A DNA stretch of 64,000 bases from an uncultured Fibrobacterota bacterium (lineage in GTDB: Bacteria > Fibrobacterota > CAYVZU01), in NCBI GenBank assembly GCA_964455935.1, contig CAYVZU010000001.1, forward strand, positions 55,142-119,141, in the 5' to 3' direction. This document shows, in pieces, positions 7,762-62,847 of the stretch (the stretch's first letter is position 1; the number at the start of each line of letters is the position of its first letter). The position numbers were made by a program, and so were the translations under genes. The notes under the pieces were generated by a model, which saw only the letters and a program-made list of their open reading frames with translations, did not search any database and had not been told where the DNA came from.

Positions 7762-8373
7762 TCACAAACTGATCAGGTAACCGACATTTACTTTCAGGTT
7801 GCTGTTTCTCTGGTTAATATCATTGGAGCTGGAGACCTTCGTCAGACCGAATGTATAGCCTGCTCCGATTACGATTTTCTTTGCGGCTATGTAAGTCGTC
7901 CCAATGGCCAATCCAAGTTCAAAGGGGCTATAATCACTCCTTAAGTCCAGCATTTCCGCCGTCATTGCGCCGGTCACTGGATTCGTGTTTTCCGTTTTGG
8001 ATTCTGCGGCCAACAGGAGCCCTATTTCCAAACCCGCATTCAGGGCCGCCGCAGGAATCGGGGAAAACGAAAATTGTACAGGTACGGCCAGGTAGCCCAG
8101 GCTTTCAAAGCATTTCTTTGTGTAGATAGGATCGGGTTCCTGGATGATGGCGCCTTTGGTTACAAAATTTACTCCTGCCAACAAACCCATTTTGTCTTTA
8201 AATGGATATGAATAGCTGGCGCCCACATTGAAGCCAAGTTTTGGGCTGGTGTATTCGGCATCATCGCCAAGGTATGTCGACATATTCACTCCGCCTCCAA
8301 CCACCACGTCGCGGGCGGCAAATACCATTGCCGAAAGTGACAGGACGGCAAAGCACACCTTCAGACATTTCAT
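7762..8373 (-). CDS. outer-membrane beta-barrel protein (OmpA-like small barrel)
   Basis: Signal peptide MKCLKVCFAVLSLSAMVFA. Alternating amphipathic beta-strands ending in an aromatic C-terminal residue. Lies in a lower-GC patch. Confidence 0.6.
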   Translation of the reverse strand: MKCLKVCFAVLSLSAMVFAARDVVVGGGVNMSTYLGDDAEYTSPKLGFNVGASYSYPFKDKMGLLAGVNFVTKGAIIQEPDPIYTKKCFESLGYLAVPVQFSFSPIPAAALNAGLEIGLLLAAESKTENTNPVTGAMTAEMLDLRSDYSPFELGLAIGTTYIAAKKIVIGAGYTFGLTKVSSSNDINQRNSNLKVNVGYLISL

Positions 8374-20396: not shown

Positions 20397-20954
20397 TCAG
20401 GCCGGCGCGAATCTCCAGAGGCTCCTCGATCTGATAAAGCAGGTTCGCGGGAATGTGCGGATGCCATCATTAATTCCTGGAATTCTGGAATCCATCTGCA
20501 TTTGATCCAAATGGCAACGGGCGTCAATCATGTATACCGCCTTCCGCTCCGCAACATAGGAATTTCCCCCATCGCCCCGCCGCATTTCCTCGAAATTTCG
20601 AAGGTGCTTCTCCAAAATCTCCAAACGAACGGGTTTGGCAATAATTGTGCAGGGCTCAAGAACCGGGTCCCTGGTTTCAAATGACCTGCCGCTAATCACC
20701 AGGGCGGGGCAGGTTATTCCAAGGTTTCGAAACCGGCGCAACATTTCAATCCCATCCATTTCCGGCATATTGACATCCGTGATAATCATGTCCAACTTCA
20801 GGCAAGATGTCTTCTCAAGGGCCTCCTTTCCATTTTCGGCCTCAATAACCATGGAATTCGGCCAGACAGACTCGCAGATCTCATGATACAGCGATCGCAG
20901 GATTGTCTCGTCATCAACAATTAAAATTGTAGATAAGTGTAAAGCAGATTGCAT
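20397..20954 (-). CDS. stand-alone CheY-like response-regulator receiver protein
   Basis: ILIVDDE, phospho-acceptor region LDMIITDVNMPEMDG, and conserved K in IAKP. No output domain. Lower-GC region. Confidence 0.7.
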   Translation of the reverse strand: MQSALHLSTILIVDDETILRSLYHEICESVWPNSMVIEAENGKEALEKTSCLKLDMIITDVNMPEMDGIEMLRRFRNLGITCPALVISGRSFETRDPVLEPCTIIAKPVRLEILEKHLRNFEEMRRGDGGNSYVAERKAVYMIDARCHLDQMQMDSRIPGINDGIRTFPRTCFIRSRSLWRFAPA

Positions 20955-21078
20955 AATAGTAAAGTCTCCTTATCATTTCAACCAATAAAGTAAATAAAAC
21001 TTAACCATATGTCAAGTACGCTGAGAATCGTGAAGACTCCGTTTGCTATTGCAAAAGGCGATTACTTGTTTTAATGGA

Positions 21079-21564
21079 ATGATTTCAAAGAACTTATCCA
21101 AGGTGCTTGAGGAACGCGGCCTTTCCGCCCGCACCCTCGCCAAGCGCGCAAAAATTAATGAGTCGTCGATTTCACTCTATCTTTCGGGCAAGCGAACCCC
21201 AAGCCTAAAAGTGCTGACGCGCCTAGCCAAGGTCCTTGAGGTGAGTTTAGACCGACTGGCACTTGGTCGCATTGATGAATCGGACATGGGAATAGATTTC
21301 GAACGGGTGATTCGAAAGTACCAGGATTTGCTTATTCGGGATAAAAGCGGCTCTTACAGCCTTGAAAAAGACCTTAAAGCGCGGCTTTCCGGCGCCAAAG
21401 GAAGTGCATACCAACAAGAAATTGCACGATTGCATCAGATTTTGACGCCGGAAGTGATTGCGGACCTCTATTTTCTGGACAATCCCAAATCGTTTCAATT
21501 GATCTGCGAAAAGTTACGGGAAAACCAGTCTCTTTCAGCGACGATTCTCTCCCAGCTACCCTAA
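21079..21564 (+). CDS. XRE-family HTH transcriptional regulator with ~100-aa C-terminal domain
   Basis: LSARTLAKRAKINESSISLYLSGKRTPSLKVLTRLAKVLEVSLDRL is a Cro/C1-type HTH. Divergent from the response regulator. Confidence 0.6.
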   Translation: MISKNLSKVLEERGLSARTLAKRAKINESSISLYLSGKRTPSLKVLTRLAKVLEVSLDRLALGRIDESDMGIDFERVIRKYQDLLIRDKSGSYSLEKDLKARLSGAKGSAYQQEIARLHQILTPEVIADLYFLDNPKSFQLICEKLRENQSLSATILSQLP

Positions 21565-27509: not shown

Positions 27510-28005
27510 GACAGCCGGCCGCCTTGGCAATCTGCGGCACCATAATTTGCCGGTCGCTTCTCTCGCGGATGAACGCAAGGGCTTTTCGGATTAATTCCTC
27601 AGGTCCGGCCATGGGGTGTGCCATACCACAAAGAATACAAATTGTTAAATCCCCAAACGCCAATATCCTCAAGCAATTCGCCTATTTGGGGATGTTTTCT
27701 TTATTTTATTTCATTATATGGGGCGTGGGGCAACCGTTCTCCTTTGTCTGGAAAAAGTTTCGGATCGCTCTCGTACTTTAATTATATTTGAGGCAGCCGG
27801 TTTCCCCATCCGGTTTCCCGCGATTCGGCGCGCAAGCATAAAATGGCCTATAGAGATTCTCAGAAGTAAGCGCCTTGATGGGGCCGTTCTCCTGATAAAA
27901 GCGAGCGGTCCATTACTGAATCTTTCATTGGGAATCGCTATATGCCGAATGCGGCGCAACATAAGATTCAGGATCATTGAATCGAAGAAGCCATCAGAGG
28001 TTTGC

Positions 28006-28407
28006 ATGCGTGGATTTGACAGTCGGGGATCCGTTCTAGTCGAATCGGCCCTCTGCTTCCCCATTCTCCTTCTTGTCGTCTTCACATGTATTCAATTGGG
28101 TCCACTATTCGTTCAGGACTTGGTGGGCGAGTATGCCCTTTACGAAATGGTTCGCCTCGGTTCCCGGGGCGAATACGGCAGCAGGAATAGCCACGACAAT
28201 CTTAACGCGGCCGAAGCCCGGGCCCGGGAAGTCTGCGGCTGGGTCCTTCCCAAACTTTCCAGCACCGAATCCCGAGCCGACCCGTTGGCAATGCATCTGG
28301 AGATGGAAATGCCCATTCAGATTCCATTTGCGCAAATTCTATTGGGGAAAAAGCGATCTGCCAGAGACGATAATCTATTGATTGAAAAAGAACTGAAGAT
28401 GCGGTAG
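28006..28407 (+). CDS. TadE-like pseudopilin
   Basis: N-terminal RGSVLVESALCFPILLLVVF is the TadE-like motif. Confidence 0.6.
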   Translation: MRGFDSRGSVLVESALCFPILLLVVFTCIQLGPLFVQDLVGEYALYEMVRLGSRGEYGSRNSHDNLNAAEARAREVCGWVLPKLSSTESRADPLAMHLEMEMPIQIPFAQILLGKKRSARDDNLLIEKELKMR

Positions 28408-28410
28408 GTC

Positions 28411-28818
28411 ATGGACCAGAACGGACAATCGTTGGTGGAAATGACAATGGTTTCTGGGCTGTTTCTGTTTGTGGTGTTTGTGACTGCGGCCATTCACGAT
28501 TTCCATCGGACACGCTATAAAACGATCGTTTGCGCCTACCGGGCCGCAACCATTGCCTCGGAGGACTGCAACGCGTCTGCCGGCTCCAACTACATTGGCG
28601 ATTTTCCACTGAAGACAATCGATCAACAGTCGGAAGTCGATGAGGATTCTAGGGGTTTTTACCGCGCTAATCTGTATACCACGGATCCCCTCTCGAAAGT
28701 CCTGCTTGGATTGGACCGCTGGATCTCTTCGGCGCGGAAGTATCCCAAAGTGAAGCGAACCTATACATTTTGGATGCTTGGCAACGACACCGGATATGAG
28801 CATGTGCTCTGGGAATAG
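28411..28818 (+). CDS. TadE-like pseudopilin
   Basis: N-terminal GQSLVEMTMVSGLFLFVVFV is the TadE-like motif. Confidence 0.6.
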   Translation: MDQNGQSLVEMTMVSGLFLFVVFVTAAIHDFHRTRYKTIVCAYRAATIASEDCNASAGSNYIGDFPLKTIDQQSEVDEDSRGFYRANLYTTDPLSKVLLGLDRWISSARKYPKVKRTYTFWMLGNDTGYEHVLWE

Positions 28819-50186: not shown

Positions 50187-51278
50187 CTATAGGACGCTGT
50201 TCCAAGCTTTCTTGATCTTGTCTCCGCGTATGCCACAAGCCAACTCCACCTCGCCAACGCCGCTGGAAAGCACGAGTCGCACTGACGCATTCTGGACCTT
50301 CTTGTCGTGCAACATCGATTCCATCAGGTCCCTAATCTTGAGTGGGGGCAGGGCATGCGGTTCGAGCAGGCTGCAAAGGCGCTGCTGTTCTTCTGCGTAT
50401 TCCGCATCGATATTACCCAGAATTCGGCCCAGTTCCGCGGCCGCACGTATTCCGTAATTGACCGCTTCGCCGTGAACGAGCTTGCCGTAACCTGCGCAAG
50501 CTTCAATGGCATGGCCAAACGTGTGACCGTAGTTTAAAATGGCGCGCAGCCCGGTCTCACGTTCGTCCTGCTCGACGATTTTGGCTTTGAAGCGGCAGCA
50601 GCGCTCGATGCACTCGATAAGTGCTTCGGAGTCGCGAGAGAGAAGCGCGCCAATTTGGGTCCGGGTCCATTCAAAGAATTCGCGGCCGCCGATGAATGCA
50701 TATTTAATGACCTCGGCCAGCCCGGCCCGAAATTCCCTTTCGGGAAGCGTGGCAAGCACATCCAGATCGATCCATACTTCCGCCGGTTGCCAGAACGCGC
50801 CGATCATGTTTTTGCCCAGCGGGTGGTTAACCGCTGTCTTTCCGCCCACCGAAGAATCGACCATGGCTAAAAGCGTGGTCGGCACCTGCACATAGGCAAT
50901 GCCGCGGCGGTAAGCGGAAGCCGCAAACCCGGCAATGTCGCCAACAACTCCGCCGCCAAAAGCAATCAGCACGGCCTTGCGGTCCAACCTCTTACGCAAA
51001 AGAAAGCGGAGAATATTTTCCCAGATCCGAAGATTCTTGCTTCGCTCGCCGGCGGGAATACGGTAATTGTGCAATCGTTGCTGAAATGCCAGCTTGCGGA
51101 TGCACTTCTTGAGGTTTTTCTGGATGATATCATCCGTGACAAGGCAAAAAGCGCTGGGGTCCACGCGCAAGGCGAACTCCAGGGACCACCGCTCCAAGGC
51201 GGATTGCCCTATACGGATCGCATAACTGCGCGCGCCCAAATTTACACGAACCGTTTTCTCCGTTGACTTATTCATCAA
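50187..51278 (-). CDS. aroB: 3-dehydroquinate synthase
   Basis: NAD-binding GGGVVGDIAGFAASAY, metal site VPTTLLAMVDSSVGGKTAVN and HTFGHAIE. Confidence 0.9.
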   Translation of the reverse strand: MMNKSTEKTVRVNLGARSYAIRIGQSALERWSLEFALRVDPSAFCLVTDDIIQKNLKKCIRKLAFQQRLHNYRIPAGERSKNLRIWENILRFLLRKRLDRKAVLIAFGGGVVGDIAGFAASAYRRGIAYVQVPTTLLAMVDSSVGGKTAVNHPLGKNMIGAFWQPAEVWIDLDVLATLPEREFRAGLAEVIKYAFIGGREFFEWTRTQIGALLSRDSEALIECIERCCRFKAKIVEQDERETGLRAILNYGHTFGHAIEACAGYGKLVHGEAVNYGIRAAAELGRILGNIDAEYAEEQQRLCSLLEPHALPPLKIRDLMESMLHDKKVQNASVRLVLSSGVGEVELACGIRGDKIKKAWNSVL

Positions 51279-51598
51279 TCGGGCTTTGGCTCGCCGCCCT
51301 CGGGAGCCGGGGTCTCGCCATTGTCAGGCCCGGGCTCGTCCTCGCCCACTTCGCCCTCGCCTTCCTCGCCCTGCTCACGATTCTGAAATTCGTCCAATGT
51401 ATCACGGATTATATCCTTGTAATTGTCTTCGACAAATTCATAAATGTCCTCATCGTCCAAATCGGCATTCTCTTCCAGCAGATCCTTGATGCAATACGCC
51501 GTGGCGAGCATAATGTTCTGTACCAGGCTCTCTTCGTATAGGCGGCGGTGCTTGCCATCCATCATTTCATCGTTTTCGTTCTCCTGTGATCCCATCAT
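51275..51598 (-). CDS. small highly acidic hypothetical protein
   Basis: 107 aa, roughly 35% Asp/Glu with an EEGEGEVGEDEPGPDNGE tail. Stop overlaps the aroB start. Confidence 0.35.
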   Translation of the reverse strand: MMGSQENENDEMMDGKHRRLYEESLVQNIMLATAYCIKDLLEENADLDDEDIYEFVEDNYKDIIRDTLDEFQNREQGEEGEGEVGEDEPGPDNGETPAPEGGEPKPD

Positions 51599-52310: not shown

Positions 52311-52823
52311 CTACCTACCGGCCAGAAAGGCTTGAATTGAGTCCCGCATATACGAATTCGGGTCCAGTTCGAGATATCTCTTCCAATAATCCGCGGTTTG
52401 TTGAGTTTCGCCCAAAACGCGATGGAGGTCGCCCAGATAGTAATGGCTCCGCTTCTCGTTGGGCGATGCCGCAAGCACCTTTTCGAAGCTGGCAATGGCG
52501 GGCCGGATCTGGCCGTATTTTACATAGGTTTCACCCATCGCAATCAGGAGCCGGACCTGGATGGGGCTGCCCGCCGGCGCCTGATCATACAGGTTTTGCA
52601 GCTTCGAAATTTCATCCTGAAGGCTCGTGCTTTGGCCCGCGGGGTTGATCACGATCTGCCGCTCCCCGGCCGGGGGCTGCGATGCGGGGGCAACATTGAT
52701 TCGCGTCTTGGCAGGAGCGGTCCAGGGATGATATATCAGGAGAACAAATCCAAGCAGGAATAGCACTAAACCCAAAGCGGCCAGTCCGGCCTTGTGATTG
52801 TGCAGGATTTGTTTCAATGGCAT
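52311..52823 (-). CDS. membrane-anchored TPR-repeat protein
   Basis: TM helix, then TPR-like helices (GETYVKYGQIRPAIASFEKVLAASPNEKRSHYYLGDL). Start chosen at MPLKQIL. Confidence 0.5.
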   Translation of the reverse strand: MPLKQILHNHKAGLAALGLVLFLLGFVLLIYHPWTAPAKTRINVAPASQPPAGERQIVINPAGQSTSLQDEISKLQNLYDQAPAGSPIQVRLLIAMGETYVKYGQIRPAIASFEKVLAASPNEKRSHYYLGDLHRVLGETQQTADYWKRYLELDPNSYMRDSIQAFLAGR

Positions 52824-52964
52824 CTTTAAAAAATAATATAAGGCTTTCCAGGAACGGAGTTTGGAAAGGAACGGCCTCAAAGGGCGGCTCCCGGCATGGC
52901 GCGGAGTGGAAGCAGGAACGCTCCAGGAACAAATACGTATTTTTCTTAAGGGAGCGAGCCAGCC

Positions 52965-53459
52965 ATGAATATCGATCACATTATCGAGACTCTCAACCAA
53001 CATGCGGTAAAATACCTACTGATTGGGGGGGTCCACTTTCTCTTGCGCCACAAACCGCAACTGACCTTTGATGTTGATGTCTGGGTGGACGACAAGCCGG
53101 ACAACTTGTTGCACTGCGAGAAGGCGCTGATTTCCTTGAAAGCTGAATGGGGCTCAACCGACCAGAATTGGGGCCCTGTTTCTGGGAAAAATCCGGGCTG
53201 GTTAGGGTCGCAATCCGTGTTCTGCCTTACAAGTCCATTTGGCGCAATTGATATTTTTCTCAGCGTGGCGGGTCTGAAAAGTTGGGCCGAATGCAATAAA
53301 CATGCGGTCGCCGGCAAGACGGCGAGTGGAGTTCCCTATAGGGGAATCTCCGATGAGGATTTGCTTCAAAGCCAATACGCGCTGGACAAGAAGGACCAAC
53401 ACCCCGAACGCATCTCCACCCTGGAATCCATTTTGAAAGATAAGAGCAGGAAGAAATAG
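52965..53459 (+). CDS. minimal nucleotidyltransferase (MNT/Pol-beta superfamily)-like protein
   Basis: YLLIGGVHFLLRHKPQLTFDVDVWVD fits the G[GS]-x(9-13)-DxD nucleotidyltransferase signature. AGGGAG SD upstream. Confidence 0.45.
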   Translation: MNIDHIIETLNQHAVKYLLIGGVHFLLRHKPQLTFDVDVWVDDKPDNLLHCEKALISLKAEWGSTDQNWGPVSGKNPGWLGSQSVFCLTSPFGAIDIFLSVAGLKSWAECNKHAVAGKTASGVPYRGISDEDLLQSQYALDKKDQHPERISTLESILKDKSRKK

Positions 53460-53463
53460 GACA

Positions 53464-53661
53464 ATGGCCAACCTAAAGGAAAAAGAAGAAGCCAAGCGAG
53501 ATTCGCATTGGGATCCATTGACGAAATGGAATCTGTTGCAGGAAACCATAGCTTGGGCGGAAGCGCAATCAACCGTCAAACGCAATACCCGCGAAAACCG
53601 CCTGGCCGAGCAGGCCAGAAAAAGATCTTCCGGCCGAACTTCTTTATCGCCTCACAATTGA
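53464..53661 (+). CDS. 65-aa charged helical protein cotranscribed with the nucleotidyltransferase
   Basis: Lies 4 nt downstream of the nucleotidyltransferase stop. No recognised motif. Confidence 0.3.
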   Translation: MANLKEKEEAKRDSHWDPLTKWNLLQETIAWAEAQSTVKRNTRENRLAEQARKRSSGRTSLSPHN

Positions 53662-53717
53662 CGGCCGGACTGTTTTTGAATTCGCAAAACCATCATCCCA
53701 AATTCAAAACAGGTCAG

Positions 53718-54074
53718 CTATTTCTGGTTTTTTGATTTTCTGGGGACACCCAGAATGACAACCGAAACCGTATCGGTATTCTTGTATATGACCGCAATAT
53801 GGATGGTATCCTTTTCATTCACGCGCAGGTTCAAGCTCTCGAAAGGAGTTATGAAGCTGCAGATGTTCCCCTTCCATCCGCATTCAACCGGCAATTGGTA
53901 GTCTTTCCCGCCGGGTTTGAAGAACATCTTTTCGTATTCCCCAGTGGCATTCACCTGAACATATCCGTCTGCATGGGAATGGATTATGATTGGCTCGTTT
54001 TTATTTGTGGGAGCGCCCAGTGCCGTGCCCGATATCTGCAACAAGGCAAAAAGGAGAAAAGTCGTCGATTTCAT
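53718..54074 (-). CDS. small secreted hypothetical protein
   Basis: Signal peptide MKSTTFLLFALLQISGTALGA. Low-GC island. Confidence 0.4.
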   Translation of the reverse strand: MKSTTFLLFALLQISGTALGAPTNKNEPIIIHSHADGYVQVNATGEYEKMFFKPGGKDYQLPVECGWKGNICSFITPFESLNLRVNEKDTIHIAVIYKNTDTVSVVILGVPRKSKNQK

Positions 54075-54321
54075 GAAAACCACCTTCCAGGGAATCTCAA
54101 TTCTGCCCGGTATTGACAAAGCATTCCTTCACGCCAGTCCTGGCCAATGCAAGCGGCAAATAGTATCCCATACGGGAAAATAGAAAAGAGCGCATGGGCT
54201 CATCCCCAACAAACGCATTTTCCGTGTCAATCAATCGAATAAATCTTCATTGGTTTGGCAGGTTCAGAAGGCCAAATTCCGCAAGGAGCCGCCGCGCTTC
54301 CTTTCCAAATAATGAATGGGA

Positions 54322-55092
54322 CTAATAGAACATCGCCATAGACGGAAACCGGGAAATGACGTGACTGTTCTTGGCTGGTTCGTATTCGCATACAATTCTG
54401 CCATTATGACGGACCCGAAAAACAATCGGGGTTTTCAGGACTTGGGTCAGATGATAAAAAGTCAAGAGTTCCGCCAAATCATCGGCCCAATTCAGGCTTG
54501 CATAAAGGGAAGGAAAGCAGGTTTTCCGGAGTTCGTCATAAACACTTGGAGCATCCGCGATATTCAGCTTGGGACCGCCCCCGAGGCCGTAGAAGGTGAT
54601 TCTGGACCGTCCGGCAAAATCGTACCGATCCACTGGTCGGTTGTAGGATTTCCAGATCCGCATCGTCGCTTCGGAAGAACCGCTACGACCCAGTCCGGCT
54701 TTCTCGCATGCGGGTTCCACATATGGAGTAATTGGCGCCACAAAGTCCACCACATGAGTCATTTCATGGAGGAGAATGTAGAGAAATCCGGAAAAGGATG
54801 AATTGCAGTAAACTGCAAGCTGGAAACTGGAGTCGCTGTGGGCAAAGCAGGATTGCTCTTTTCTGGTAAGTACGTCGGACAAGCTGCCCTTTAAGACAGA
54901 AGGATTAAAGAGCAGATAGCAATAGACCTGGTGCGTGCTATCCAGAACGAAATCCGTAAGCCCGCTTCCCATGAAGTTATAAAAATATGCCAACAATTCT
55001 CTTCTCCAATATTTCCCGGTGCACTTTGGGCAGATAAGCCATGCAGTCAGCAAACAGATCCATGTCCGCTCGTGTGGGCCGATACGGGGCAT
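54322..55092 (-). CDS. HExxH zinc-metallopeptidase-like hypothetical protein
   Basis: LLHEMTHVVDF motif. Low-GC island. The N-terminus may continue in another frame (see the next feature). Confidence 0.45.
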   Translation of the reverse strand: MPRIGPHERTWICLLTAWLICPKCTGKYWRRELLAYFYNFMGSGLTDFVLDSTHQVYCYLLFNPSVLKGSLSDVLTRKEQSCFAHSDSSFQLAVYCNSSFSGFLYILLHEMTHVVDFVAPITPYVEPACEKAGLGRSGSSEATMRIWKSYNRPVDRYDFAGRSRITFYGLGGGPKLNIADAPSVYDELRKTCFPSLYASLNWADDLAELLTFYHLTQVLKTPIVFRVRHNGRIVCEYEPAKNSHVISRFPSMAMFY

Positions 55093-55279
55093 AATCCGGC
55101 CGGCTGTCCATGGCGCGGGTCTCGCTTAAGAGAAAGCCGGGAGCCTCCCTGATCCGGGAAAGCACAGAAGAATCCGGCTGGAAATCATAGCTTTCCAGCC
55201 TCCTGACCGGCGACTGGCGCAGGCGGTCCAGCGGGCCAATAGATGGGCTGCAGGCGCTTTGGACGAGGGCAACAAGCAT
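54977..55279 (-). CDS. lipoprotein-signal ORF overlapping the HExxH protein out of frame (possible frameshifted N-terminus)
   Basis: MLVALVQSAC is lipobox-like. The 3' 115 nt overlap the 54322..55092 ORF in a different frame. Confidence 0.25.
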   Translation of the reverse strand: MLVALVQSACSPSIGPLDRLRQSPVRRLESYDFQPDSSVLSRIREAPGFLLSETRAMDSRPDYAPYRPTRADMDLFADCMAYLPKVHREILEKRIVGIFL

Positions 55280-55598
55280 GCAACCAAAAAGAAACCGAAT
55301 GATGGAAGGGGAACCTTGTCGGGCCTTGTTCTGCCATTTCGGGTACCTATTGCAGTAAGATCACTCCCATTTGGATCAGCCGAAAAAAAGATACAGCTCA
55401 ATCCATTCAAATAGCCTGCATAATATTCCCTATTCAAGCCGTATTTGCGTGCGATTGCTATTCCTGCGCACTTTGCAAAAGATGAATATGCCGCGAATAC
55501 CGTTCATGAAAACGTGAAGCGTTTTGTATCCTGGCGCTCGGAGCCAAACCAAGCCGCGGTTTTTGATAAAGCTAGGCCGTGGGAATCGCCGGGACGGA

Positions 55599-55901
55599 TC
55601 AGTTCCTATAAAAAAGCGGGTAGCCCTTTGGGTTTTCAATACTATCGGTGTGCAGGTCTATATCCAACTGAGGCCAATGCAGATGTGAATGGCCAAGGAG
55701 TTTCACATCCAGAATAGAGGAAACCGTGGCATCCTTGAACCAGGGGAACTCATCATAGGGCAGAAAGTGCTCATGCGCGCGCACCACGAAATTGCAGTCC
55801 CCCAAAAGCCTTCGTATTTTAATAGACTTCCTTTTTGCAGCAACTTGATCCAAAGGAGTTGGCCAATGCCGCCGTCGACTAAACCCATCCGGAAGCGCCA
55901 A
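55599..55901 (-). CDS. DUF2442-family small protein
   Basis: C-terminal PWFKDATVSSILDVKLLGHSHLHWPQLDIDLHTDSI matches the DUF2442 core. The 5' end is uncertain. Confidence 0.5.
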   Translation of the reverse strand: MALPDGFSRRRHWPTPLDQVAAKRKSIKIRRLLGDCNFVVRAHEHFLPYDEFPWFKDATVSSILDVKLLGHSHLHWPQLDIDLHTDSIENPKGYPLFYRN

Positions 55902-56255
55902 GTGAAGCTTGCCAAGGCAACCCTATCGCACACTCGCAAACCTGAAGAAATTCCTGCTGGCCAAATTTCAGGAAGAAGCACCGGTCTGCGTTGGCGCAGG
56001 GCCATGTTCCATCCTAATGGGCCGCTCTTTGAGGCGGGCGCCGCCTTCTTGCGCGAGCTGGGTGTGCTTGCGCATACGGACCAACAGTCCGGTTCCTTGC
56101 CGGCCCGATCATTCATCGAGAAAGACCCCAAAACCGGTGGCACGTATTTGAAAATTCCCATGCCAAAGCCTGACGTTCTGGCAAACCTATTTCGAACAGC
56201 CGTTTTTCTGCCGGAAGGATTGCGGCAAGCGTTTGGATCCGGCGCCGCCCGATGA
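55866..56255 (+). CDS. 129-aa basic hypothetical protein translationally coupled to jetA
   Basis: Perfect SD AAAGGAG 7 nt before the ATG at 55866. Stop overlaps the jetA start as ATGA, and jetA has no SD of its own. No recognised motif. Confidence 0.5.
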   Translation: MPPSTKPIRKRQVKLAKATLSHTRKPEEIPAGQISGRSTGLRWRRAMFHPNGPLFEAGAAFLRELGVLAHTDQQSGSLPARSFIEKDPKTGGTYLKIPMPKPDVLANLFRTAVFLPEGLRQAFGSGAAR

Positions 56256-57694
56256 ATCTCGACTTTGCCGCTCTCAGCGCCTTGCGAAAGAATCATCCGG
56301 CCTGGCGGCTGTTGATGGCGGATCATGCGCCGCTGATTGCCAGTTTCTTACACCGGGTATTCATCGCGCCCAATGTGCGAACAATGGCGCAGGGCGAGTT
56401 GGTATCGAAGCTGGAAGACGAACTGTTTCAATTGCGCGCAAGCCATGGCGCGGAAGCGTTCCCGCGGGATGCCGTCAAATACCTGGACGAATGGGCACAG
56501 AACGACAAAGGCTGGCTGCGCAAATTCTATCCGCCCAATTCGGACGAGGCCCATTTCGACCTTACCCCGGCAACGGAAAAGGCAATTGCCTGGATCGAGA
56601 CTCTCACGGCCCGCGCCTTTGTGGGGACGGAATCCCGTCTCATGACGGTGTTTGTTCTGTTGCGCCAGATGGTGGAAGGCGCGGAGACCAACGCGGAAGT
56701 CCGCCTGGCCGAGCTACAGAAGCACAAGACCGAAATTGAACTCGAAATAGAGCGGGTTCGCGCCGGCGACTTGAACTTGCTGGATGAAACCGGTCTTCGC
56801 GACCGTTTTCAGCAAATTGCCGGCACGGCGCGGGAACTGCTGGCCGATTTCCGCGAGGTGGAGCATAATTTCCATCTTCTGGATCAAAGGGTGCGTGAAC
56901 AAATTGCCGTGTGGGAGGGGAAAAAGGGCGAGCTTCTGGAAAATGTATTTGGCGAACGGGACGTAATCGCCGATTCCGACCAAGGGAAAAGTTTTCGCGC
57001 ATTCTGGGATTTTTTAATGTCGCCGTCGCGACAAGAAGAATTGTCGGGCTTACTGGAGCGTGTTTTTGAGTTTGCGGCAATACGGGCCATGACCCCGGAC
57101 ACGCGGTTGAAACGTATTCATTATGACTGGTTGGAGGCAGGCGAACAGACGCAGCGCACGGTGGCCAGGCTTTCGCAACAATTGCGGCGCTATCTTGATG
57201 ATCAGGTTTGGCTTGAAAACCGGCGAATCATGCAGGTGCTGAGGACCATCGAGAGCAAGGCCATTGCCGCGCGCGAAGCCGTGCCCGCCGGACCCTTCAT
57301 GGAAATCGATGAGCCGGCCCCGGCTTTCAATCTGCCCATGGAACGGCCGCTCTTCTCGCCGGCCTTGAAGCCGGTGATCGCGAGTCAGGTTCTCGAGGGA
57401 GGCGGCGAGAGCGTCTTGACGGACGCCCTTTTTAATCAAGTCATGATCGACAAGGCGGAATTGGCTGGCCGGATTCGGAAGGCCCTGCAAAACCGCCGGC
57501 AAATTACCTTGGCGGAATTACTGGCGGAACACCCGCTCGCATTGGGCCTGTCGGAATTAATCGCGTATTTGTCATTGGCCGGAGAGGACAGGAAGGCTGT
57601 GTTCGATGAAAGCCGGATTGAAGTGGTAGGGTGGAATGACGAAAACGGCAATCCCCGACAGGCCCGGTTGCCCCGGATTATATTCAACAGGTAG
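56252..57694 (+). CDS. jetA: Wadjet JetA (DUF3375, MukF/kleisin-like)
   Basis: 480 aa. Position and size fit the four-gene Wadjet arrangement. Coiled-coil-rich with a winged-helix-like terminus. Confidence 0.75.
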   Translation: MNLDFAALSALRKNHPAWRLLMADHAPLIASFLHRVFIAPNVRTMAQGELVSKLEDELFQLRASHGAEAFPRDAVKYLDEWAQNDKGWLRKFYPPNSDEAHFDLTPATEKAIAWIETLTARAFVGTESRLMTVFVLLRQMVEGAETNAEVRLAELQKHKTEIELEIERVRAGDLNLLDETGLRDRFQQIAGTARELLADFREVEHNFHLLDQRVREQIAVWEGKKGELLENVFGERDVIADSDQGKSFRAFWDFLMSPSRQEELSGLLERVFEFAAIRAMTPDTRLKRIHYDWLEAGEQTQRTVARLSQQLRRYLDDQVWLENRRIMQVLRTIESKAIAAREAVPAGPFMEIDEPAPAFNLPMERPLFSPALKPVIASQVLEGGGESVLTDALFNQVMIDKAELAGRIRKALQNRRQITLAELLAEHPLALGLSELIAYLSLAGEDRKAVFDESRIEVVGWNDENGNPRQARLPRIIFNR

Positions 57695-57698
57695 TCCC

Positions 57699-58307
57699 AT
57701 GGAACAGCCAAACGCCGCAACCGATGCTTTTCCATGCGTGATGATCGCTCTTATGAAAGGCGTTGTGTATGGAGAGGCGGACGCGGGTCTTTGGCAGAAT
57801 CTGCTGAACCTGCAAAGCCGGGTGCGCGACTATGTTTCGGTCCTGGGATTGGAGCTGATGCTCGACGAGCCCGAGGGATATGCCTGGCTGCGCTCAAGGC
57901 CGGTCGCCGAAGGCAAAGATCCGCTGCCGCGGCTGATTCCCCGAAGACAGCTCTCATACCCGGTGAGCCTTCTGATCGCCCTGCTTCGCAAAAAGCTGGC
58001 CGAATCCGATGCGGGAGGCGGAGAGACGCGGCTGATTCTTAGCCGCGATGCGGTGGTGGAAATGCTCCGGGTGTTTTTTCCGGCCGGAACCAACGAAGCC
58101 CGCCTTGTGGATCAGATCGATGCGCACCTCAATAAGATCGCGGAACTTGGATTCATTCGCCGCTTGCGCGGCCGCGAGGACCTCATCGAGGTACGCCGGA
58201 TTCTTAAAGCCTTCGTGGATGCCCAGTGGCTGGCCGATTTCGATGTGCGCCTGCAAACCTATTGCGAAAAAACTGGCGACTTCGATGAAAAGGGGAAGCA
58301 GGACTAA
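57699..58307 (+). CDS. jetB: Wadjet JetB (DUF4194, MukE-like)
   Basis: ~200 aa acidic protein placed between JetA and the SMC-like JetC. Confidence 0.7.
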
Positions 58308-61300
58308 TGCAGGAGCAGCTCGATTTCACCACAAGCGACCACCAGGCGGGTTTCCGCCTGCATCGGTTGGAGGTGTACAACTGGGGGACGTTCCACCACC
58401 GGGTCTGGTCTCTTTGCCTTGATGGCGCGAACTGCCTTCTTACCGGTGATATCGGGTCCGGAAAGTCCACCCTGGTGGACGCAATCACGACGCTGCTGGT
58501 CCCAGCCCACCGAGTGGCTTACAACAAGGCGGCCGGGGCCGAGGCAAAAGAACGGACCCTGCGATCCTATGTTCTGGGCTATTATAAAACAGAGCGCAGC
58601 GAAACCGGACAAGCGGCCAAACCGGTGGCCTTGCGCGACCATAACAGCTATTCGGTGATCCTTGGCGTTTTCCGCAACATTGGATACGATCAGGAAATAA
58701 CCCTGGCCCAGGTTTTCTGGTGTAAGGACCTACAGGGCCAGCCGGCCCGCTTCTTCCTGGTATCGGATGCGGCCCTGACAATCGCAAAGGACTTCGCCGA
58801 TTTCGGCAATGACATCAACCACCTCCGCAAAAAATTGCGCGTAAATCGTTCGATCGAAATCTTCGATGGTTTTTCGCCCTATGCCGCAGCGTTTCGCCGG
58901 CGTTTTGGTATCGTGAACGATCAGGCCCTGGATCTGTTCCATCAAACCGTGTCCCTGAAATCGGTGGGCAATCTTACGGATTTTGTTCGCCAGCATATGC
59001 TTGAAGCCTTTGAGATCGAGCCGCGCATCGAGGCATTGATTGCCCATTTCGATGATTTAAGCCGGGCACATGAAGCCGTTCTCAAAGCAAAGAATCAGAT
59101 TTCCCTGCTCTTGCCCCTGGTGGAGAACTGCGAGAAGCACCGCGACATTGGGCGACAACGGGAGATATGGCGCAATTGCCGCGATGGATTGCGCGCCTAT
59201 TTCGCTTCGCTAAAGGCCGGATTGCTGGAAAAGCGGATGGATCATTTGGAACAAGAGCAGATCCGCCGGTCCTCCAAGATCGAAGCGCTTACAGAGGTCC
59301 ATCGTGCACTGAATGCAGACCGGGACAGTTTGAAACAGGCCATTGCGGAAAATGGCGGGGACCGCCTGGAGCGGATTAAGGCGGAGATCGAGGCCAGGAC
59401 CGGGGAGAAGGAGAAGCGCCGGAAGCGGGCCGAGCGGTATGACGAACTGGCGGGGCAGCTTGAAATGCTCTCCGCCCAAAACCTGGAAGCATTTGCCTCA
59501 AACCAAGCAGCCTTACGGGCAAATCTCCGCGTGAGTGAAACAGCGGAAACCAATTTGCAAAACGCCTTAACCGAGCTTTCGGCGGACATGAAAAACCTCC
59601 GGCAGCAACACGCGAACCTGACCGCGGAAATTGAATCGCTGCGGCAGCGCCAAAGCAACATCAGCGATGCGCAAATTCGAATTCGCCGCCTTCTTTGCCG
59701 GGACCTGAATCTGACGGAAGAGACCATGCCGTTTGTCGGCGAGTTGATCAAGGTGCGCGAGGAAGAGGTTGCTTGGGAAGGCGCAACCGAGCGGCTATTG
59801 CATAATTTTGGACTTTCTCTTCTGGTCCCGGACAGCCACTACTCCAAAGTCGCCGAATGGGTTGAACACACCCATTTGAATGCGCGGCTCGTGTATTACC
59901 GGGTGCGGCGGGAATCAATGGGCGATCAGCCTGAATTGCATCCCGATTCCCTGGTTCGCAAGCTGGCCATTAAGCCGGATTCCGAATTCTACGGCTGGCT
60001 CGAACGGGAGCTGGCGCGGCGCTTTGATTATGCCTGCTGCGAAAGTATCGAGCGATTCCGCCGGGAAAAGGAGGCCGTTACGCGTGCCGGACAGATTAAA
60101 TCCGGCGGCCAGAGACACGAGAAAGACGACCGTCATCGCATCGAAGACCGCAGCCGGTTCGTGCTGGGCTGGAACAATCAGGCCAAGATCGCCGCTCTGG
60201 CCGGGCAGGCCGGACATCAGGAAAAACGAATCCAGGATTTCGCCGGGGAGATCGTCGTCCGCCAAACCGAACTGGAACGAGTAAAAGAACGTCGAATTCA
60301 AATGGCGCGATTGGGCGAGTTCCCCGATTTTGGCGAATTGGAGTGGCAGCCTCTTGCCGTAATAATTGCCGATCTGGAACGGGAAAGGCAGGCATTAGAA
60401 GCGGCCTCGGACATATTAATGACCCTTTCGACGAAGCTGCAGGCCGTCGAGGAAAAAATCGGGGTCGCACAACAGGAGCTTGATGCCGAGAAAGAGGCTC
60501 GGGCCAAAAACGAGGTGAAGCAGGAACAGGCCCGGCAGATGCTGCAATCCTGTCGGACCGTAATCGAATCCATGCCAATCGCGGATCGTGAGTCCTTGTT
60601 TGCCATGCTCGAACCTCTGAGAACGGAGGCGTTGGAGGAGCATACGCTTGGCGTGGAATCCTGCGACAACCGTGAACGGGACATGCGGGACTGGCTGCAA
60701 AGAAAGATCGATAACGAGGACAGGCGGATTCGCGAGCTGGAAGAGCGCATTGTCAAAGCCATGGAGGATTACCGGCATCAGTATCCGCTGGAGACGCAGG
60801 AGGTGGATGCCGCTCTTGGCTCGGCAACCGAGTTCATGGCCATGCTTCAGCGCCTGCGGGCCGACGATCTCCCCCGTTTCGAGCAGCGATTTAAGGAATT
60901 GCTCAACGAGAATACAATCCGGGAAGTGGCGAACTTTCAGTCGCAGCTTGCGCGGGAGCGCCAGACCATCCGTGAACGCATCGAACGGATCAACAAATCT
61001 CTCAAGGCGATCGAATACAATCCCAGGCGGTTCATTGCCCTCGAAGCCCAGGCCAACCAGGATCCCGAGGTGCGGGATTTTCAGGAAAATCTGCGCGCTT
61101 GCACCGAGGGAGCGCTCACCGGCTCCGAAGATGAGCAATATTCCGAGACAAAGTTCCTGCGGGTAAAGTCTATGATCGAACGCTTTCGGGGCCGCGGCGG
61201 CAGCAGTGAACTGGACAAACGATGGACCGCCAAAGTAACGGATGTACGAAACTGGTTCGTATTCGCCGCCTCGGAACGATGGATCGAGGACGGGACCGAA

Positions 61301-61672
61301 TACGAGCATTACACGGATTCCAGTGGCAAGTCCGGCGGTCAAAAAGAGAAGCTGGCCTACACGGTCCTGGCCGCCAGCCTGGCCTACCAATTCGGGCTTG
61401 AATGGGGCGAAACCCGGTCCCGCACTTTCCGTTTCGTGGCTATTGACGAGGCCTTTGGCCGCGGGTCCGATGAATCGGCCCGTTTTGGCCTCAACCTCTT
61501 CCAGCGTCTTAACCTGCAATTGCTGATCGTCACCCCTCTACAAAAAATCCATATCATCGAGCCTTTTGTGGCCGGCGTGGGATTTGTTCACAGCGAATTG
61601 GGCCGTGAATCCATGCTGCGCAATCTCACCATCGAACAATACCGGGCCGAGCGCGAAGCCCGGCGCGCATGA
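58307..61672 (+). CDS. jetC: Wadjet JetC (SMC/MukB-like ABC ATPase)
   Basis: N-terminal Walker [10 protein letters not shown]...[17 protein letters not shown], long coiled coils, and C-terminal signature/Walker [15 protein letters not shown]...QLLIVTPLQ. 1121 aa. Confidence 0.85.
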
Positions 61673-62847
61673 ACATGTGGACGCGCGTTATGGATATCCG
61701 CCTTCGCCTGCGCAGGATGTGGGACAAAGGCGTCTTCCTGCGAACGCGGATATCAGGGGAGGAATTGTTTCCCCTTCGCCTGATCTTAAAACACCCAACC
61801 CCGCGTGAACTGGCGGAACGCTTCGCGCAAGCACAAGAATGGATTGCCGCCATTGGCGTTGGCGATAAATCCGAAACCGGAAGCGGCTATGAAGTGGAAT
61901 GGCGGGAAATCAACCATCGACAATTGGGCCGAAACCGGCTTGCCGTGGCTGTACAATTCGAATCCGAGAGCGATGTTCTGGCATTTTTGGGCAAACAAAA
62001 GCAGGCCGATGCTTTCTCACGTCTCGTGGAAAATGCCAGCCGTTCATGTCCGGAGATAATGCCCTGGCTAGCCCGCTATCCCCTGCGCGCCTTGGAGCAT
62101 CTTTCCCAATGGCCACAGCATATGGCGGTATTGGATTGGTTGCGCCGAAACCCACGACCCGGGATTTATATCCGCCAAATGGAAATTCCGGACGTGGATA
62201 CAAAATTCATCGAAACCAACAGAAAGCTACTCTGTGAGTTGCTGGACATGGTTTTGCCGGAATCCTCCATCGACCGCAATGCGGAGGCCGGAGCGTTTGA
62301 GCGGCGTTATGGGTTCAAAGAGAAACCGGCTTTAATCCGTTTTCGTCTTCTGGATCCGGATCTCTATTTAAAGGGCCTTTCGGATCTGGCCATCCCGGCC
62401 GAACAATTTGCGCGATTACATCTCCCTGTCCAGCAGGTATTTATCATGGAAAATGAGATCAACGGTCTGGCTTTTCCCGGCCGCAAAAAGAGCTTGGTGA
62501 TTTTCGGGCTTGGCTACGGCCTCGACCGCCTGGCCGCCGCGGAATGGCTGCGCGCGAAGCAAATTTGGTACTGGGGCGACATCGACACTCATGGTTTTGC
62601 CATGCTGGACCAGGTCCGCCACTATTTTCCGGCCACACAATCCTTATTGATGGATCGAGAGACTCTGTTAAAGCACCGGGCTCTCTGGGTAACGGAAAGC
62701 AGCCCAACGCAACGCGAACTGTCCGGATTAACCGAGGCGGAATTGGCGCTCTATAACGACCTGCGGCGGGACCGGCTTGGGCCTCGAATCCGGCTGGAGC
62801 AGGAAAGAATCGATTTCCGCCGGGTAAAATCCGCGCTTGGCGCGTGA
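61669..62847 (+). CDS. jetD: Wadjet JetD (DUF2220, Toprim/topo-VI-like nuclease)
   Basis: C-terminal toprim-like acidic motifs FIMENE and [10 protein letters not shown]. 392 aa. ATGA-coupled to jetC. Confidence 0.85.

What the first reader, a model, noticed from the sequence alone, without database searches (positions are those of the whole stretch)
52965..55901. Low-GC defense-island segment: nucleotidyltransferase cassette, HExxH lipoprotein, DUF2442
Between housekeeping aroA/aroB/tlyA-like genes and Wadjet, GC falls visibly from ~60% to ~45% over roughly 53.7-55.5 kb. The segment carries a Pol-beta/MNT-like nucleotidyltransferase followed 4 nt later by a 65-aa partner (not an obvious HEPN), a small secreted protein, an HExxH protein with a possible frameshifted lipoprotein N-terminus, and a DUF2442 protein. 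MNT-type nucleotidyltransferases with small partners and DUF2442 are recurrent defense and toxin-antitoxin-island components. The NTase plus 65-aa pair does not match the classic MntA-HepT layout and may be an uncharacterised two-gene module.
Basis: partly seen in the sequence, partly recalled or inferred. Interest (0 to 1): 0.6.

Follow-up and report, generated by a model that had tools for sequence, protein, structure and literature searches.

The report
Unannotated nucleotidyltransferase and small-partner gene pair
A 3-kb lower-GC patch beside a Wadjet defence system carries a two-gene cassette with no family annotation, found only in Planctomycetes/Verrucomicrobia-type bacteria: an enzyme shaped like the tuberculosis tRNA-poisoning toxin MenT1, plus a 65-residue partner that probably controls it; the other genes in the patch are ordinary or broken.

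Summary
The segment is 49.5% GC against 56.1% for the window, and it is the lowest 2.9-kb stretch of the 64 kb. The drop is not 60 to 45%.

**The NTase pair (the interesting part)**
- G21-G22, T34-x-D36-x-D38 and D96 are conserved. More distant relatives are DUF6036/DUF2204 proteins, which sit behind overlapping Xre-HTH genes.
- The 65-aa partner (53464-53661) lies directly downstream in 78 of 80 PVC-group genomes, usually overlapping the NTase gene by 4-8 nt. In at least three protein clusters the two are fused. The partner is a basic two-helix hairpin, not a HEPN domain.
- Neighbouring genes differ from genome to genome and are mostly housekeeping, so the pair is a free-standing cassette rather than a defence-island marker.

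**Best reading (about 0.4):** a MenAT1-like toxin-antitoxin module with reversed gene order and a new antitoxin.

**The rest of the segment**
- The HExxH gene is a frameshifted copy of an uncharacterised ~335-aa family.
- The DUF2442 gene has no DUF4160 partner.
- No integrase, tRNA gene or flanking repeats mark the patch.

The parts
52965..53459 (+). 164-aa nucleotidyltransferase-fold protein. It belongs to an unannotated, PVC-restricted family distantly related to DUF6036/DUF2204 and is the probable effector (toxin) of the cassette.
53464..53661 (+). 65-aa basic helical-hairpin partner. It is probably translationally coupled to the NTase and is its probable cognate regulator (antitoxin).
   Evidence: It starts 4 nt after the NTase stop, and an AGGAAG lies inside the NTase 3' end. 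A homologue is directly downstream in 78/80 genomes, mostly with -4 or -8 nt overlaps. It forms 228 protein clusters, all 60-99 aa, with no Pfam or PDB sequence match. R12, W22 and R40 are invariant. It is fused to the NTase in P0046, P0116 and P0113/L080. It models as two helices at pLDDT 61-83. Median pI is 9.6, against 5.7 for the NTase.
53718..54074 (-). 118-aa (133 aa from the upstream TTG at 54119) small protein with a signal-peptide-like N-terminus (MKSTTFLLFALLQISGTALGAP). Function unknown.
   Evidence: ORF list. No Pfam, NCBIfam, PADLOC or PHROG hit. It has the lowest gene GC of the segment, 46.2%, z = -3.2. The signal peptide was judged by eye; no predictor was run.
54322..54972 (-). 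C-terminal piece of a frameshifted HExxH (putative zinc metallopeptidase) lipoprotein gene. Gene callers give 216 aa; the open frame extends to 55092.
   Evidence: Homologues are 320-357 aa with no Pfam domain. They come from Spirochaetes, KSB1 and unclassified MAGs at up to 49% identity. ILLHExTHxVDY and WAEDLAE are conserved.
54977..55279 (-). N-terminal piece (100 aa) of the same HExxH gene, with a short lipobox-like start (MLVALVQSAC).
   Evidence: It aligns to residues ~30-130 of the full-length homologues and stops at ...RIVGIFL*, where they read ...GIYFIxNFLGSG. The same split is called in L002 and L003. No start codon lies further upstream in this frame, so the usual signal-peptide n-region is missing.
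54981..54985 (-). Frameshift site. A T5 run on the coding strand shifts the downstream frame by +1, which fits a 1-nt insertion.
   Evidence: Three-frame translation of 54961-55020 and the homologue alignment.
55599..55853 (-). DUF2442 protein. Gene callers give 84 aa; the open frame runs to 55901 (100 aa). It has no DUF4160 partner.
   Evidence: Pfam PF10387 at 43.5 bits against a cut-off of 23.9. Three-frame translation and Pfam scans of 55590-56330 show no DUF4160 remnant upstream.
56252..62847 (+). Context only: complete type I Wadjet (JetA 56252-57694, JetB 57636-58307, JetC 58307-61672, JetD 61669-62847) at host-like GC (56.5%).
   Evidence: PADLOC JetA1 E = 3.9e-220, JetB1 7.5e-88, JetC1 E = 0, JetD1 1.6e-143. 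GC.

Best explanation
The segment is a small patch of accessory DNA with lower GC than its surroundings. It has no detectable mobility genes and lies between a housekeeping block and Wadjet. It holds four unrelated items.

**The functional item** is a self-contained two-gene cassette. Gene 1 encodes a 164-aa Pol-beta-superfamily nucleotidyltransferase whose fold is closest to the tRNA-modifying toxin MenT1. Gene 2, probably translationally coupled to it, encodes a ~60-aa basic two-helix protein.

**Most likely mechanism (inferred by analogy, not shown):**
- The NTase is a growth-arresting effector that adds nucleotides to an RNA, probably tRNA 3' ends.
- The small protein binds it and keeps it off, either by blocking the active site or by inducing auto-phosphorylation of the invariant Thr34, which sits two residues before the catalytic Asp36.
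- This would make it a MenAT1-like toxin-antitoxin pair, but with the small gene downstream and with a new, unrelated antitoxin.

**The other three items** are a small exported protein of unknown function, a frameshifted (probably dead) HExxH lipoprotein gene, and a DUF2442 gene without a DUF4160 partner.

**Shown:** the genes, the GC dip, the fold, the conserved catalytic motifs, the strict pairing, the fusions and the variable genomic context. **Inferred:** toxicity, the substrate and the mode of neutralisation.
For: **Fold**
- The AF2 model is confident, pLDDT 93.4.
- Foldseek's top hit is MenT1 in the MenAT1 complex, E = 3.6e-5.

**Active site**
- G21, G22, D36, D38 and D96 are conserved in 78-81 of 81 sequences.
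- T34 is invariant at the [S/T]-x-D position. This position corresponds to the MenT1 T39 / MenT3 S78 phosphoacceptor described in PMC11375011.

**Pairing**
- The partner is directly downstream in 78/80 genomes, with -4/-8 nt overlaps.
- Three of three partners sampled from the partner side have an NTase-sized gene (164-184 aa, no Pfam hit) directly upstream. Homology of those genes was not tested.
- Pairwise identities of the two proteins are correlated, r = 0.62.

**TA-like habits**
- No neighbour is conserved and the contexts are housekeeping.
- Distribution looks sporadic: relatives in 139 of the 185,579 species genomes scanned. This is a lower bound, because the scan used only two peptide patterns. 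The 80 loci kept are almost all PVC; the exceptions are one Nanopelagicales MAG and a few unclassified bins.
- More distant relatives (profile E 1e-11 to 1e-18) are DUF6036/DUF2204 proteins. In three of the four relatives looked up, an overlapping Xre-HTH gene lies just upstream, which is the classic antitoxin-toxin layout.
- A distant relative sits between IS6 elements on an Acidisarcina plasmid.

**Other points**
- The two partner-less loci (L031, L046) both carry D96N at the third carboxylate.
- MenA1 is likewise a 68-aa antitoxin with no DNA-binding domain (PMC10435456).
- Adding the partner helices does not extend the structural match to MenT1. The aligned length is 141 residues in both searches, so the partner is an add-on and not a missing piece of the fold.
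Against: - Nothing here tests toxicity.
- The family fails the sequence definition of MenT/AbiEii. PF08843 is not hit by the window protein or by any of 24 family members at E <= 1.
- No invariant lysine equivalent to MenT1 K137 was found.
- Gene order is the reverse of menA1-menT1.
- The NTase is acidic (median pI 5.7) and the partner basic (9.6). This is the opposite of many toxin/antitoxin pairs, and it would suit a nucleic-acid-binding subunit.
- Both proteins are unusually well conserved for a TA pair: 56% and 45% mean identity across phyla, with invariant R12, W22 and R40 in the partner.
- Domain fusions are more typical of enzyme subunits, although fused TA systems are known.
- LnuA and ANT(2''), which are small-molecule NTases, are nearly as close in fold as MenT1.
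- The D96N observation probably reflects a single evolutionary event.
- The partner's position in the fusion model has only moderate confidence (pLDDT 61-83), and I could not inspect the coordinates.
Confidence: 0.4

Rival explanations
1. A non-toxic two-subunit enzyme. The NTase modifies a small molecule (as LnuA and ANT(2'') modify antibiotics) or a cellular RNA. The basic hairpin protein is an obligate substrate-binding or activating subunit rather than an inhibitor.
Against: Known LnuA/ANT(2'')-type enzymes work alone (established knowledge). The cassette moves between unrelated contexts and has a patchy distribution. More distant relatives pair with Xre-HTH genes in the TA manner. The partner helices do not overlay any element of the related solved enzymes. 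The two partner-less copies carry D96N, so they do not look like free-standing active enzymes.
Confidence: 0.25
2. A type VII-like system with the roles reversed, as in MntA-HepT. The small basic protein is the toxin. The upstream NTase is the antitoxin and neutralises it by binding or by nucleotidylating it.
For: The gene order (NTase first, partner second, overlapping) matches mntA-hepT and the usual antitoxin-then-toxin order (established knowledge of MntA-HepT). The acidic NTase and basic partner fit the usual charge pattern of antitoxin and toxin.
Confidence: 0.15
3. The whole segment is a functional defence island acting with Wadjet. On this view the NTase pair, the HExxH protein and DUF2442 are accessory defence genes.
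For: The segment adjoins a complete JetABCD. Its GC is lower than the surroundings. DUF2442/DUF4160 pairs and NTase TA modules are reported in TA and defence contexts (papers listed; PMC11375011).
Against: No segment protein hits PADLOC. In 80 other genomes the cassette is not next to Wadjet, and it is rarely next to any defence model. The HExxH gene is frameshifted. DUF2442 lacks its usual partner. The genes lie on both strands with separate homologue distributions.
Confidence: 0.05

Closest known systems
MenAT1 (Rv0078B-Rv0078A) of Mycobacterium tuberculosis; MenT / AbiEii (DUF1814) NTase toxins
   Different: There is no significant sequence similarity to DUF1814 or to any solved structure (best is TM1012 at E = 0.39). 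The protein is shorter (164 against 197 aa). No invariant lysine matches K137. The small gene lies downstream, not upstream. The partner is unrelated to MenA1. The family is essentially confined to PVC bacteria. Toxicity is untested.
Pfam DUF6036 / DUF2204 (nucleotidyltransferases of unknown function); TM1012 of Thermotoga maritima
   Different: The window protein and its close family stay below the Pfam cut-offs (11.9 bits against 23.6). The DUF6036 relatives examined have a small overlapping gene upstream instead of the downstream hairpin protein, and in three of four it is an Xre-HTH. None of these families has a demonstrated function.
MntA-HepT (MNT-HEPN) type VII toxin-antitoxin
   Same: A minimal NTase gene is followed by an overlapping second gene, and the NTase catalytic motifs are intact.
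   Different: The partner is not a HEPN domain. The NTase fold is of the MenT1/LnuA/ANT(2'') type and no MNT structure is among the listed matches. There is no conserved acceptor residue in the partner.
LnuA and ANT(2'')-Ia antibiotic nucleotidyltransferases
   Different: Those enzymes are single-gene resistance determinants. This family is tied to a coupled partner gene, and there is no significant sequence similarity.
DUF2442 / DUF4160 putative TA pair
   Same: The 55599-55853 gene is a bona fide DUF2442 member (43.5 bits).
   Different: No DUF4160 gene or remnant is adjacent, so this copy is an orphan.

Membership tests
MenT / AbiEii (DUF1814) NTase toxins | Sequence match to Pfam PF08843 (DUF1814/AbiEii) | tested here: not met
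   There is no hit at E <= 1 for the window protein or for any of 24 family members. Only faint hits (E ~0.005) appear in more distant DUF6036-type relatives.
MenT / AbiEii (DUF1814) NTase toxins | Pol-beta motifs I and II (hG[GS] ... [DE]h[DE]h) plus a third carboxylate | tested here: met
   LLIGG (G21, G22), TFDVDVW (D36, D38) and AIDIF (D96) are conserved in 78-81 of 81 sequences.
MenT / AbiEii (DUF1814) NTase toxins | Ser/Thr phosphoacceptor two residues before the first catalytic Asp (MenT1 T39, MenT3 S78) | tested here: met
   T34 is invariant in 81/81 sequences. The feature is described in PMC11375011. The equivalence rests on motif position and was not checked by residue-level superposition.
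MenT / AbiEii (DUF1814) NTase toxins | C-terminal motifs III and IV (MenT1 K137, D152) | tested here: inconclusive
   There is no invariant lysine. The invariant C-terminal residues are D130, Q137 and R149.
MenT / AbiEii (DUF1814) NTase toxins | MenT-like three-dimensional fold | tested here: met
MenT / AbiEii (DUF1814) NTase toxins | Growth inhibition by nucleotide addition to tRNA 3' ends, neutralised by the adjacent gene | not testable with these tools
   This needs toxicity-rescue assays and tRNA 3'-end sequencing.
MntA-HepT (MNT-HEPN, type VII TA) | Partner is a HEPN domain with the Rx4-6H motif | tested here: not met
   The partner is a ~55-residue two-helix hairpin with no conserved His and no Pfam or PDB match.
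MntA-HepT (MNT-HEPN, type VII TA) | NTase of the minimal MNT type | tested here: not met
Pfam DUF6036 / DUF2204 NTases | Score above the Pfam gathering cut-off | tested here: not met
   DUF6036 scores 11.9 bits against a cut-off of 23.6. Among the 24 family members, 5 hit DUF6036 and 3 hit DUF2204, all below threshold.
Pfam DUF6036 / DUF2204 NTases | Transitive homology through intermediate sequences | tested here: met
   The family profile finds P0229, P0230, P0232, P0242 and P0251 at E <= 1e-11. These pass the DUF6036 cut-off, and P0229, P0230, P0251 and P0198 pass the DUF2204 cut-off.
DUF2442 | Pfam PF10387 above cut-off | tested here: met
   43.5 bits against 23.9, E = 3.7e-11.
DUF2442 / DUF4160 two-gene pair | Adjacent DUF4160 gene | tested here: not met
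   Adjacent ORFs on both strands give no Pfam hit, and the three-frame translation shows no remnant.
DUF4344 / known HExxH peptidase families (for the 54322-55279 gene) | Pfam match | tested here: not met
   No Pfam hit at E <= 1 for the window pieces or for full-length P0052. P0063 gives only two irrelevant sub-threshold hits, E 0.16 and 0.2. The HExxH motif itself is nearly invariant (H189, E190 and H193).
Genomic island | Deviant base composition | tested here: met
   49.5% GC against 56.1% for the window. It is the lowest 2.9-kb stretch of the window, and its genes have GC z-scores of -2 to -3.
Genomic island | Integrase, tRNA target or flanking direct repeats | tested here: not met
   No tRNA gene, no repeat of 20 nt or more bracketing the segment, and no recombinase among the ORFs.
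Genomic island | Absence from the same locus in close relatives | tested here: inconclusive
   The metagenome scan with the TlyA-like protein found only relatives at 62% identity or less, with no shared synteny.
Defence island / known defence system (segment genes) | Match to a PADLOC model, or recurrent defence neighbours | tested here: not met
   There are no PADLOC hits for the six segment ORFs scanned (five genes, the HExxH gene as two pieces). Nearest neighbours in 80 genomes are housekeeping, and at most about 11 of 129 hit any defence model.
Wadjet type I (context) | JetA, JetB, JetC and JetD in order | tested here: met
   PADLOC JetA1-JetD1, E from 7.5e-88 down to 0.

The most novel reading that the evidence does not exclude
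The cassette is not a classical toxin-antitoxin pair. It is a new kind of two-component nucleotidyltransferase. In this reading a conserved basic helical hairpin (invariant R12, W22 and R40, near-invariant N41) is an obligate specificity or activating subunit, or is itself the nucleotidylated target. That would define a regulatory or RNA-modifying system found almost only in PVC bacteria, with no characterised counterpart.
Probability: 0.25. Interest if true: 0.6.

Novelty: new variant of a known kind. Interest (0 to 1): 0.45.

Why it matters
NTase toxins of the MenT/AbiEii type block translation by extending tRNA 3' ends, and each known example is held in check by a different kind of antitoxin. 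This cassette would add several things:
- a compact 164-aa branch that falls outside the DUF1814 sequence definition;
- a new ~60-aa partner family (228 clusters, no annotation);
- reversed gene order and natural toxin-partner fusions;
- a distribution almost entirely within Planctomycetes, Verrucomicrobia, Kiritimatiellia and Lentisphaerae, where experimentally characterised TA systems are, to my knowledge, scarce (not checked here).

The invariant Thr34 gives a direct test of whether antitoxin-induced auto-phosphorylation extends beyond DUF1814.

On the practical side, both proteins are now labelled 'hypothetical' in every source, so they could be given family-level annotation. The rest of the finding (GC dip, pseudogene, orphan DUF2442) is routine accessory-genome content.

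Tried and rejected
1. **Direct family assignment.** Pfam, NCBIfam, PADLOC and PHROGs give nothing above threshold for the NTase, the partner, the 133-aa protein or the HExxH gene.
2. **PDB sequence searches.** Searches with the single protein and with profiles gave no significant hit. The best was TM1012 at E = 0.39 for the NTase; the partner gave none.
3. **A conserved third gene or defence neighbourhood.** Clustering the flanking ORFs of 78 loci found no neighbour shared beyond a handful of loci (at most 6), including one clade of five closely related genomes.
4. **Comparative test of island insertion.** A metagenome scan with the TlyA-like neighbour returned only distant relatives with no synteny.
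5. **Block-diagonal alignment for modelling the fusion.** Placing partner sequences under the C-terminus of the fusion protein failed, because MAFFT misaligned them onto the NTase. I used the fusion plus NTase rows instead.
7. **Mobile-element links.** There are no phage hits. Only 25%-identity relatives occur on three plasmids.
8. **ncRNA, tRNA, repeats, promoters and terminators in the segment.** Nothing stood out above chance.
9. **DUF4160 remnant next to DUF2442.** None found.
10. **Programmed +1 frameshifting at UUU-UUA for the HExxH gene.** I considered this but did not favour it. The N-terminal signal peptide also looks truncated, and no homologue shows a split.


Full report
**1. What is in the sequence**

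- a 164-aa ORF at 52965-53459 (+);
- a 65-aa ORF at 53464-53661 (+), starting 4 nt after the first ORF's stop codon;
- a 118/133-aa ORF at 53718-54074/54119 (-) with a signal-peptide-like start;
- an HExxH ORF at 54322-55092 (-), overlapped by a 100-aa ORF at 54977-55279 (-);
- a DUF2442 ORF at 55599-55901 (-), Pfam E = 3.7e-11.

The flanks are also as described. To the left lie EPSP synthase, DHQ synthase, an FtsJ/TlyA-like methyltransferase and a TPR protein. To the right lies a complete type I Wadjet, JetA-D at 56252-62847. The DNA comes from a groundwater metagenome. Identical copies of the segment occur in four contigs from four samples, in the ENA, JGI and Logan collections.

**2. Base composition**

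- The segment is 49.5% GC against 56.1% for the whole window.
- It is essentially the lowest 2.9-kb stretch in the 64 kb. Only 0.27% of same-length windows are as low, and the next-lowest non-overlapping window is 51.9%.
- Segment genes lie at 46-50% GC against 56.2 +/- 3.2% for the window's other ORFs (z = -2 to -3). GC3 is 1-2 sd low.
- So the dip is real, but it is about 7-9 points rather than '60 to 45'. It rebounds to 55% at 55.0-55.4 kb.
- Smaller low-GC genes occur elsewhere in the window.
- No tRNA gene, integrase or bracketing repeats mark the patch.
- I could not test whether relatives lack the patch. The only relatives found through the neighbouring TlyA-like gene are at most 62% identical and share no synteny.

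**3. The NTase**

*Sequence family.*
- No Pfam or NCBIfam family reaches threshold; DUF6036 scores E = 0.2.
- The word-indexed search found 50 homologues of ~160 aa at 48-70% identity, none annotated.
- An exhaustive profile search of 1.84 billion cluster representatives found 46 at E <= 1e-30, 149 at 1e-10 and 1,837 at 1e-3.
- The weaker full-length hits are DUF6036/DUF2204 proteins that pass the Pfam cut-offs. The family is therefore a divergent branch of that poorly known NTase cluster.

*Fold.*
- AlphaFold2 with a 24-sequence alignment gives pLDDT 93.4.
- Foldseek ranks MenT1 in the MenAT1 complex first, E = 3.6e-5.

*Conserved residues across 81 sequences.*
- Invariant: G21, G22, H29, T34, D36, W40, N47, D130, Q137 and R149.
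- D38 is present in 80 of 81 and D96 in 78 of 81.
- The T34-x-D36 arrangement mirrors T39-x-D41 of MenT1. There T39 is the site of antitoxin-induced auto-phosphorylation, and D41 binds Mg2+ (PMC11375011).
- No invariant lysine equivalent to MenT1 K137 exists.
- PF08843 (DUF1814) is not hit. I therefore do not file the protein as a MenT family member, only as MenT1-like in fold and active-site layout.

**4. The partner and the pairing**

- A scan of one genome per species found relatives in 139 genomes. This is a lower bound, because only two peptide patterns were used. Of the 80 loci kept, almost all are Planctomycetota, Verrucomicrobiota, Kiritimatiellia or Lentisphaerota. The exceptions are one Nanopelagicales MAG and a few unclassified bins.
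- In 78 of the 80 loci, a homologue of the 65-aa protein lies directly downstream, typically overlapping by 4 or 8 nt.
- From the partner side, 228 clusters of 60-99 aa were found. Three of three sampled on long contigs have a 164-184-aa gene with no Pfam hit just upstream. Those genes were not tested for homology to the NTase.
- Pairwise identities of the two proteins are correlated (r = 0.62; means 56% and 45%).
- Fused NTase-partner proteins occur in at least three clusters: P0046, P0116 and P0113/L080.
- The partner has invariant R12, W22 and R40, and near-invariant E8, I29, W31, Q35 and N41. It has no Pfam or PDB sequence match.
- It is basic (median pI 9.6), whereas the NTase is acidic (5.7).
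- In a model of the natural fusion it forms two helices at moderate confidence, pLDDT 61-83.
- It is not a HEPN domain.

**5. Genomic habits of the cassette**

- No flanking gene is conserved beyond a handful of loci (at most 6), including one clade of five closely related genomes.
- The nearest neighbours are a miscellany of housekeeping functions: oxidoreductases, aminotransferases, tRNA synthetases, ClpX, transporters.
- At most about 11 of 129 neighbours hit any PADLOC model, and the multi-member IetA hits may be ClpX-type AAA ATPases.
- There are no phage hits. Only 25%-identity relatives occur on plasmids, one of them between IS6 copies.
- The cassette is thus a free-standing, patchily distributed module of the kind seen for chromosomal toxin-antitoxin loci. 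Its position next to Wadjet here looks incidental.
- The four DUF6036-type distant relatives I looked up each have a small overlapping upstream gene. In three of them it is an Xre-type HTH. This is the classic antitoxin-toxin layout.
- The two loci that lack the partner (L031, L046) both carry D96N at the third catalytic carboxylate. This fits the idea that an active NTase is not tolerated alone. It is probably a single event, though, and it also fits decay after loss of either gene.

**6. Mechanism**

My best-supported reading is a MenAT1-like toxin-antitoxin pair. The NTase would be the effector, probably nucleotidylating RNA or tRNA 3' ends. The small protein would be its direct protein inhibitor, acting by occlusion, by T34 auto-phosphorylation, or both. 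MenA1 is a precedent for a 68-aa antitoxin with no DNA-binding domain (PMC10435456). I put this at about 0.4.

Points against it:
- the gene order is reversed;
- the charge pattern is the opposite of many TA pairs;
- both proteins are unusually well conserved;
- natural fusions exist;
- LnuA and ANT(2'') are nearly as close in fold as MenT1.

The rivals are:
- a non-toxic two-subunit enzyme (0.25);
- an MntA-HepT-like arrangement in which the NTase is the antitoxin (0.15);
- a functional link to Wadjet (0.05).

None of these can be settled without expression experiments or a model of the complex.

**7. The other genes**

*HExxH gene.*
- It belongs to an uncharacterised family of 320-357-aa proteins with no Pfam domain. 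Named sources are Spirochaetes, KSB1 and unclassified MAGs, at up to 49% identity.
- Nearly invariant ILLHExTHxVDY and WAEDLAE motifs suggest a zinc peptidase.
- In the window the gene is split by a +1 shift at a T5 run, 54981-85. The same split appears in two other assemblies. Its signal peptide also lacks the usual n-region. It is most likely a pseudogene.
- Its homologues sit in ordinary chromosomal contexts.

*133-aa exported protein.* It has no detectable relatives in the family libraries.

*DUF2442 gene.* It is intact but has no DUF4160 neighbour or remnant.

**8. Verdict**

The 'uncharacterised two-gene module' idea is right and is the valuable part. The 'defence island' framing is not supported.

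Novelty: a new variant of a known kind. It is an NTase toxin-like module with a new partner family, reversed gene order and natural fusions, almost entirely confined to PVC bacteria.

Interest is moderate (0.45). The case rests on strong comparative evidence for the module, but only on analogy for its function.

Noticed in passing
window 52768-52823; L002 1-591: Contig L002 (JGI 3300009296) is 99.9% identical to window 52768-58374. To the left of 52768 it carries a DedA/VTT-domain ORF that shares only its first 18 codons (MPLKQILHNHKAGLAALG) with the window's TPR gene. This is either an assembly chimera or a real rearrangement at the left edge of the segment.
   Followed up: partly
window 55866-56255 (+): A 129-aa ORF ends in an ATGA overlap with the jetA start codon and has host-like GC (57%). 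It has no Pfam, PADLOC, PHROG or plasmid match. Gene callers also call it in L002 and L003. It may be an unrecognised gene riding with Wadjet, or a spurious ORF.
   Followed up: partly
L031 6001-6495; L046 3719-4246: These are the only two of 80 genome loci without the partner gene. Both carry D96N (and G93C) in the otherwise conserved AIDIF strand of the NTase, and they share a conserved minus-strand gene downstream instead.
   Followed up: partly
L085 2679-3486; L087 3-990; L088 502-1283; L089 2310-2974: Distant DUF6036/DUF2204-type relatives of the NTase are each preceded by a small overlapping gene. In three of four it is an Xre-type HTH_3. This suggests that the wider, functionally uncharacterised DUF6036 cluster consists of TA-like pairs.
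   Followed up: partly
window 51275-51598 (-): A 107-aa, extremely acidic ORF (rich in D and E) overlaps the aroB start by 4 nt and has no family match. Gene callers call it in L001.
   Followed up: no
window 7762-8373, 20397-21564, 27718-28803: These are other short low-GC genes (47-51% GC) in the same window, so small compositionally deviant patches are not unique to the flagged segment.
   Followed up: no
window 54322-55279; P0052-P0108: The HExxH gene belongs to a ~335-aa lipoprotein-like family with nearly invariant ILLHExTHxVDY and NWAEDLAE motifs. It has no Pfam model; named sources are Spirochaetes, KSB1 and unclassified MAGs. It looks like an undescribed putative metallopeptidase family.
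   Followed up: partly
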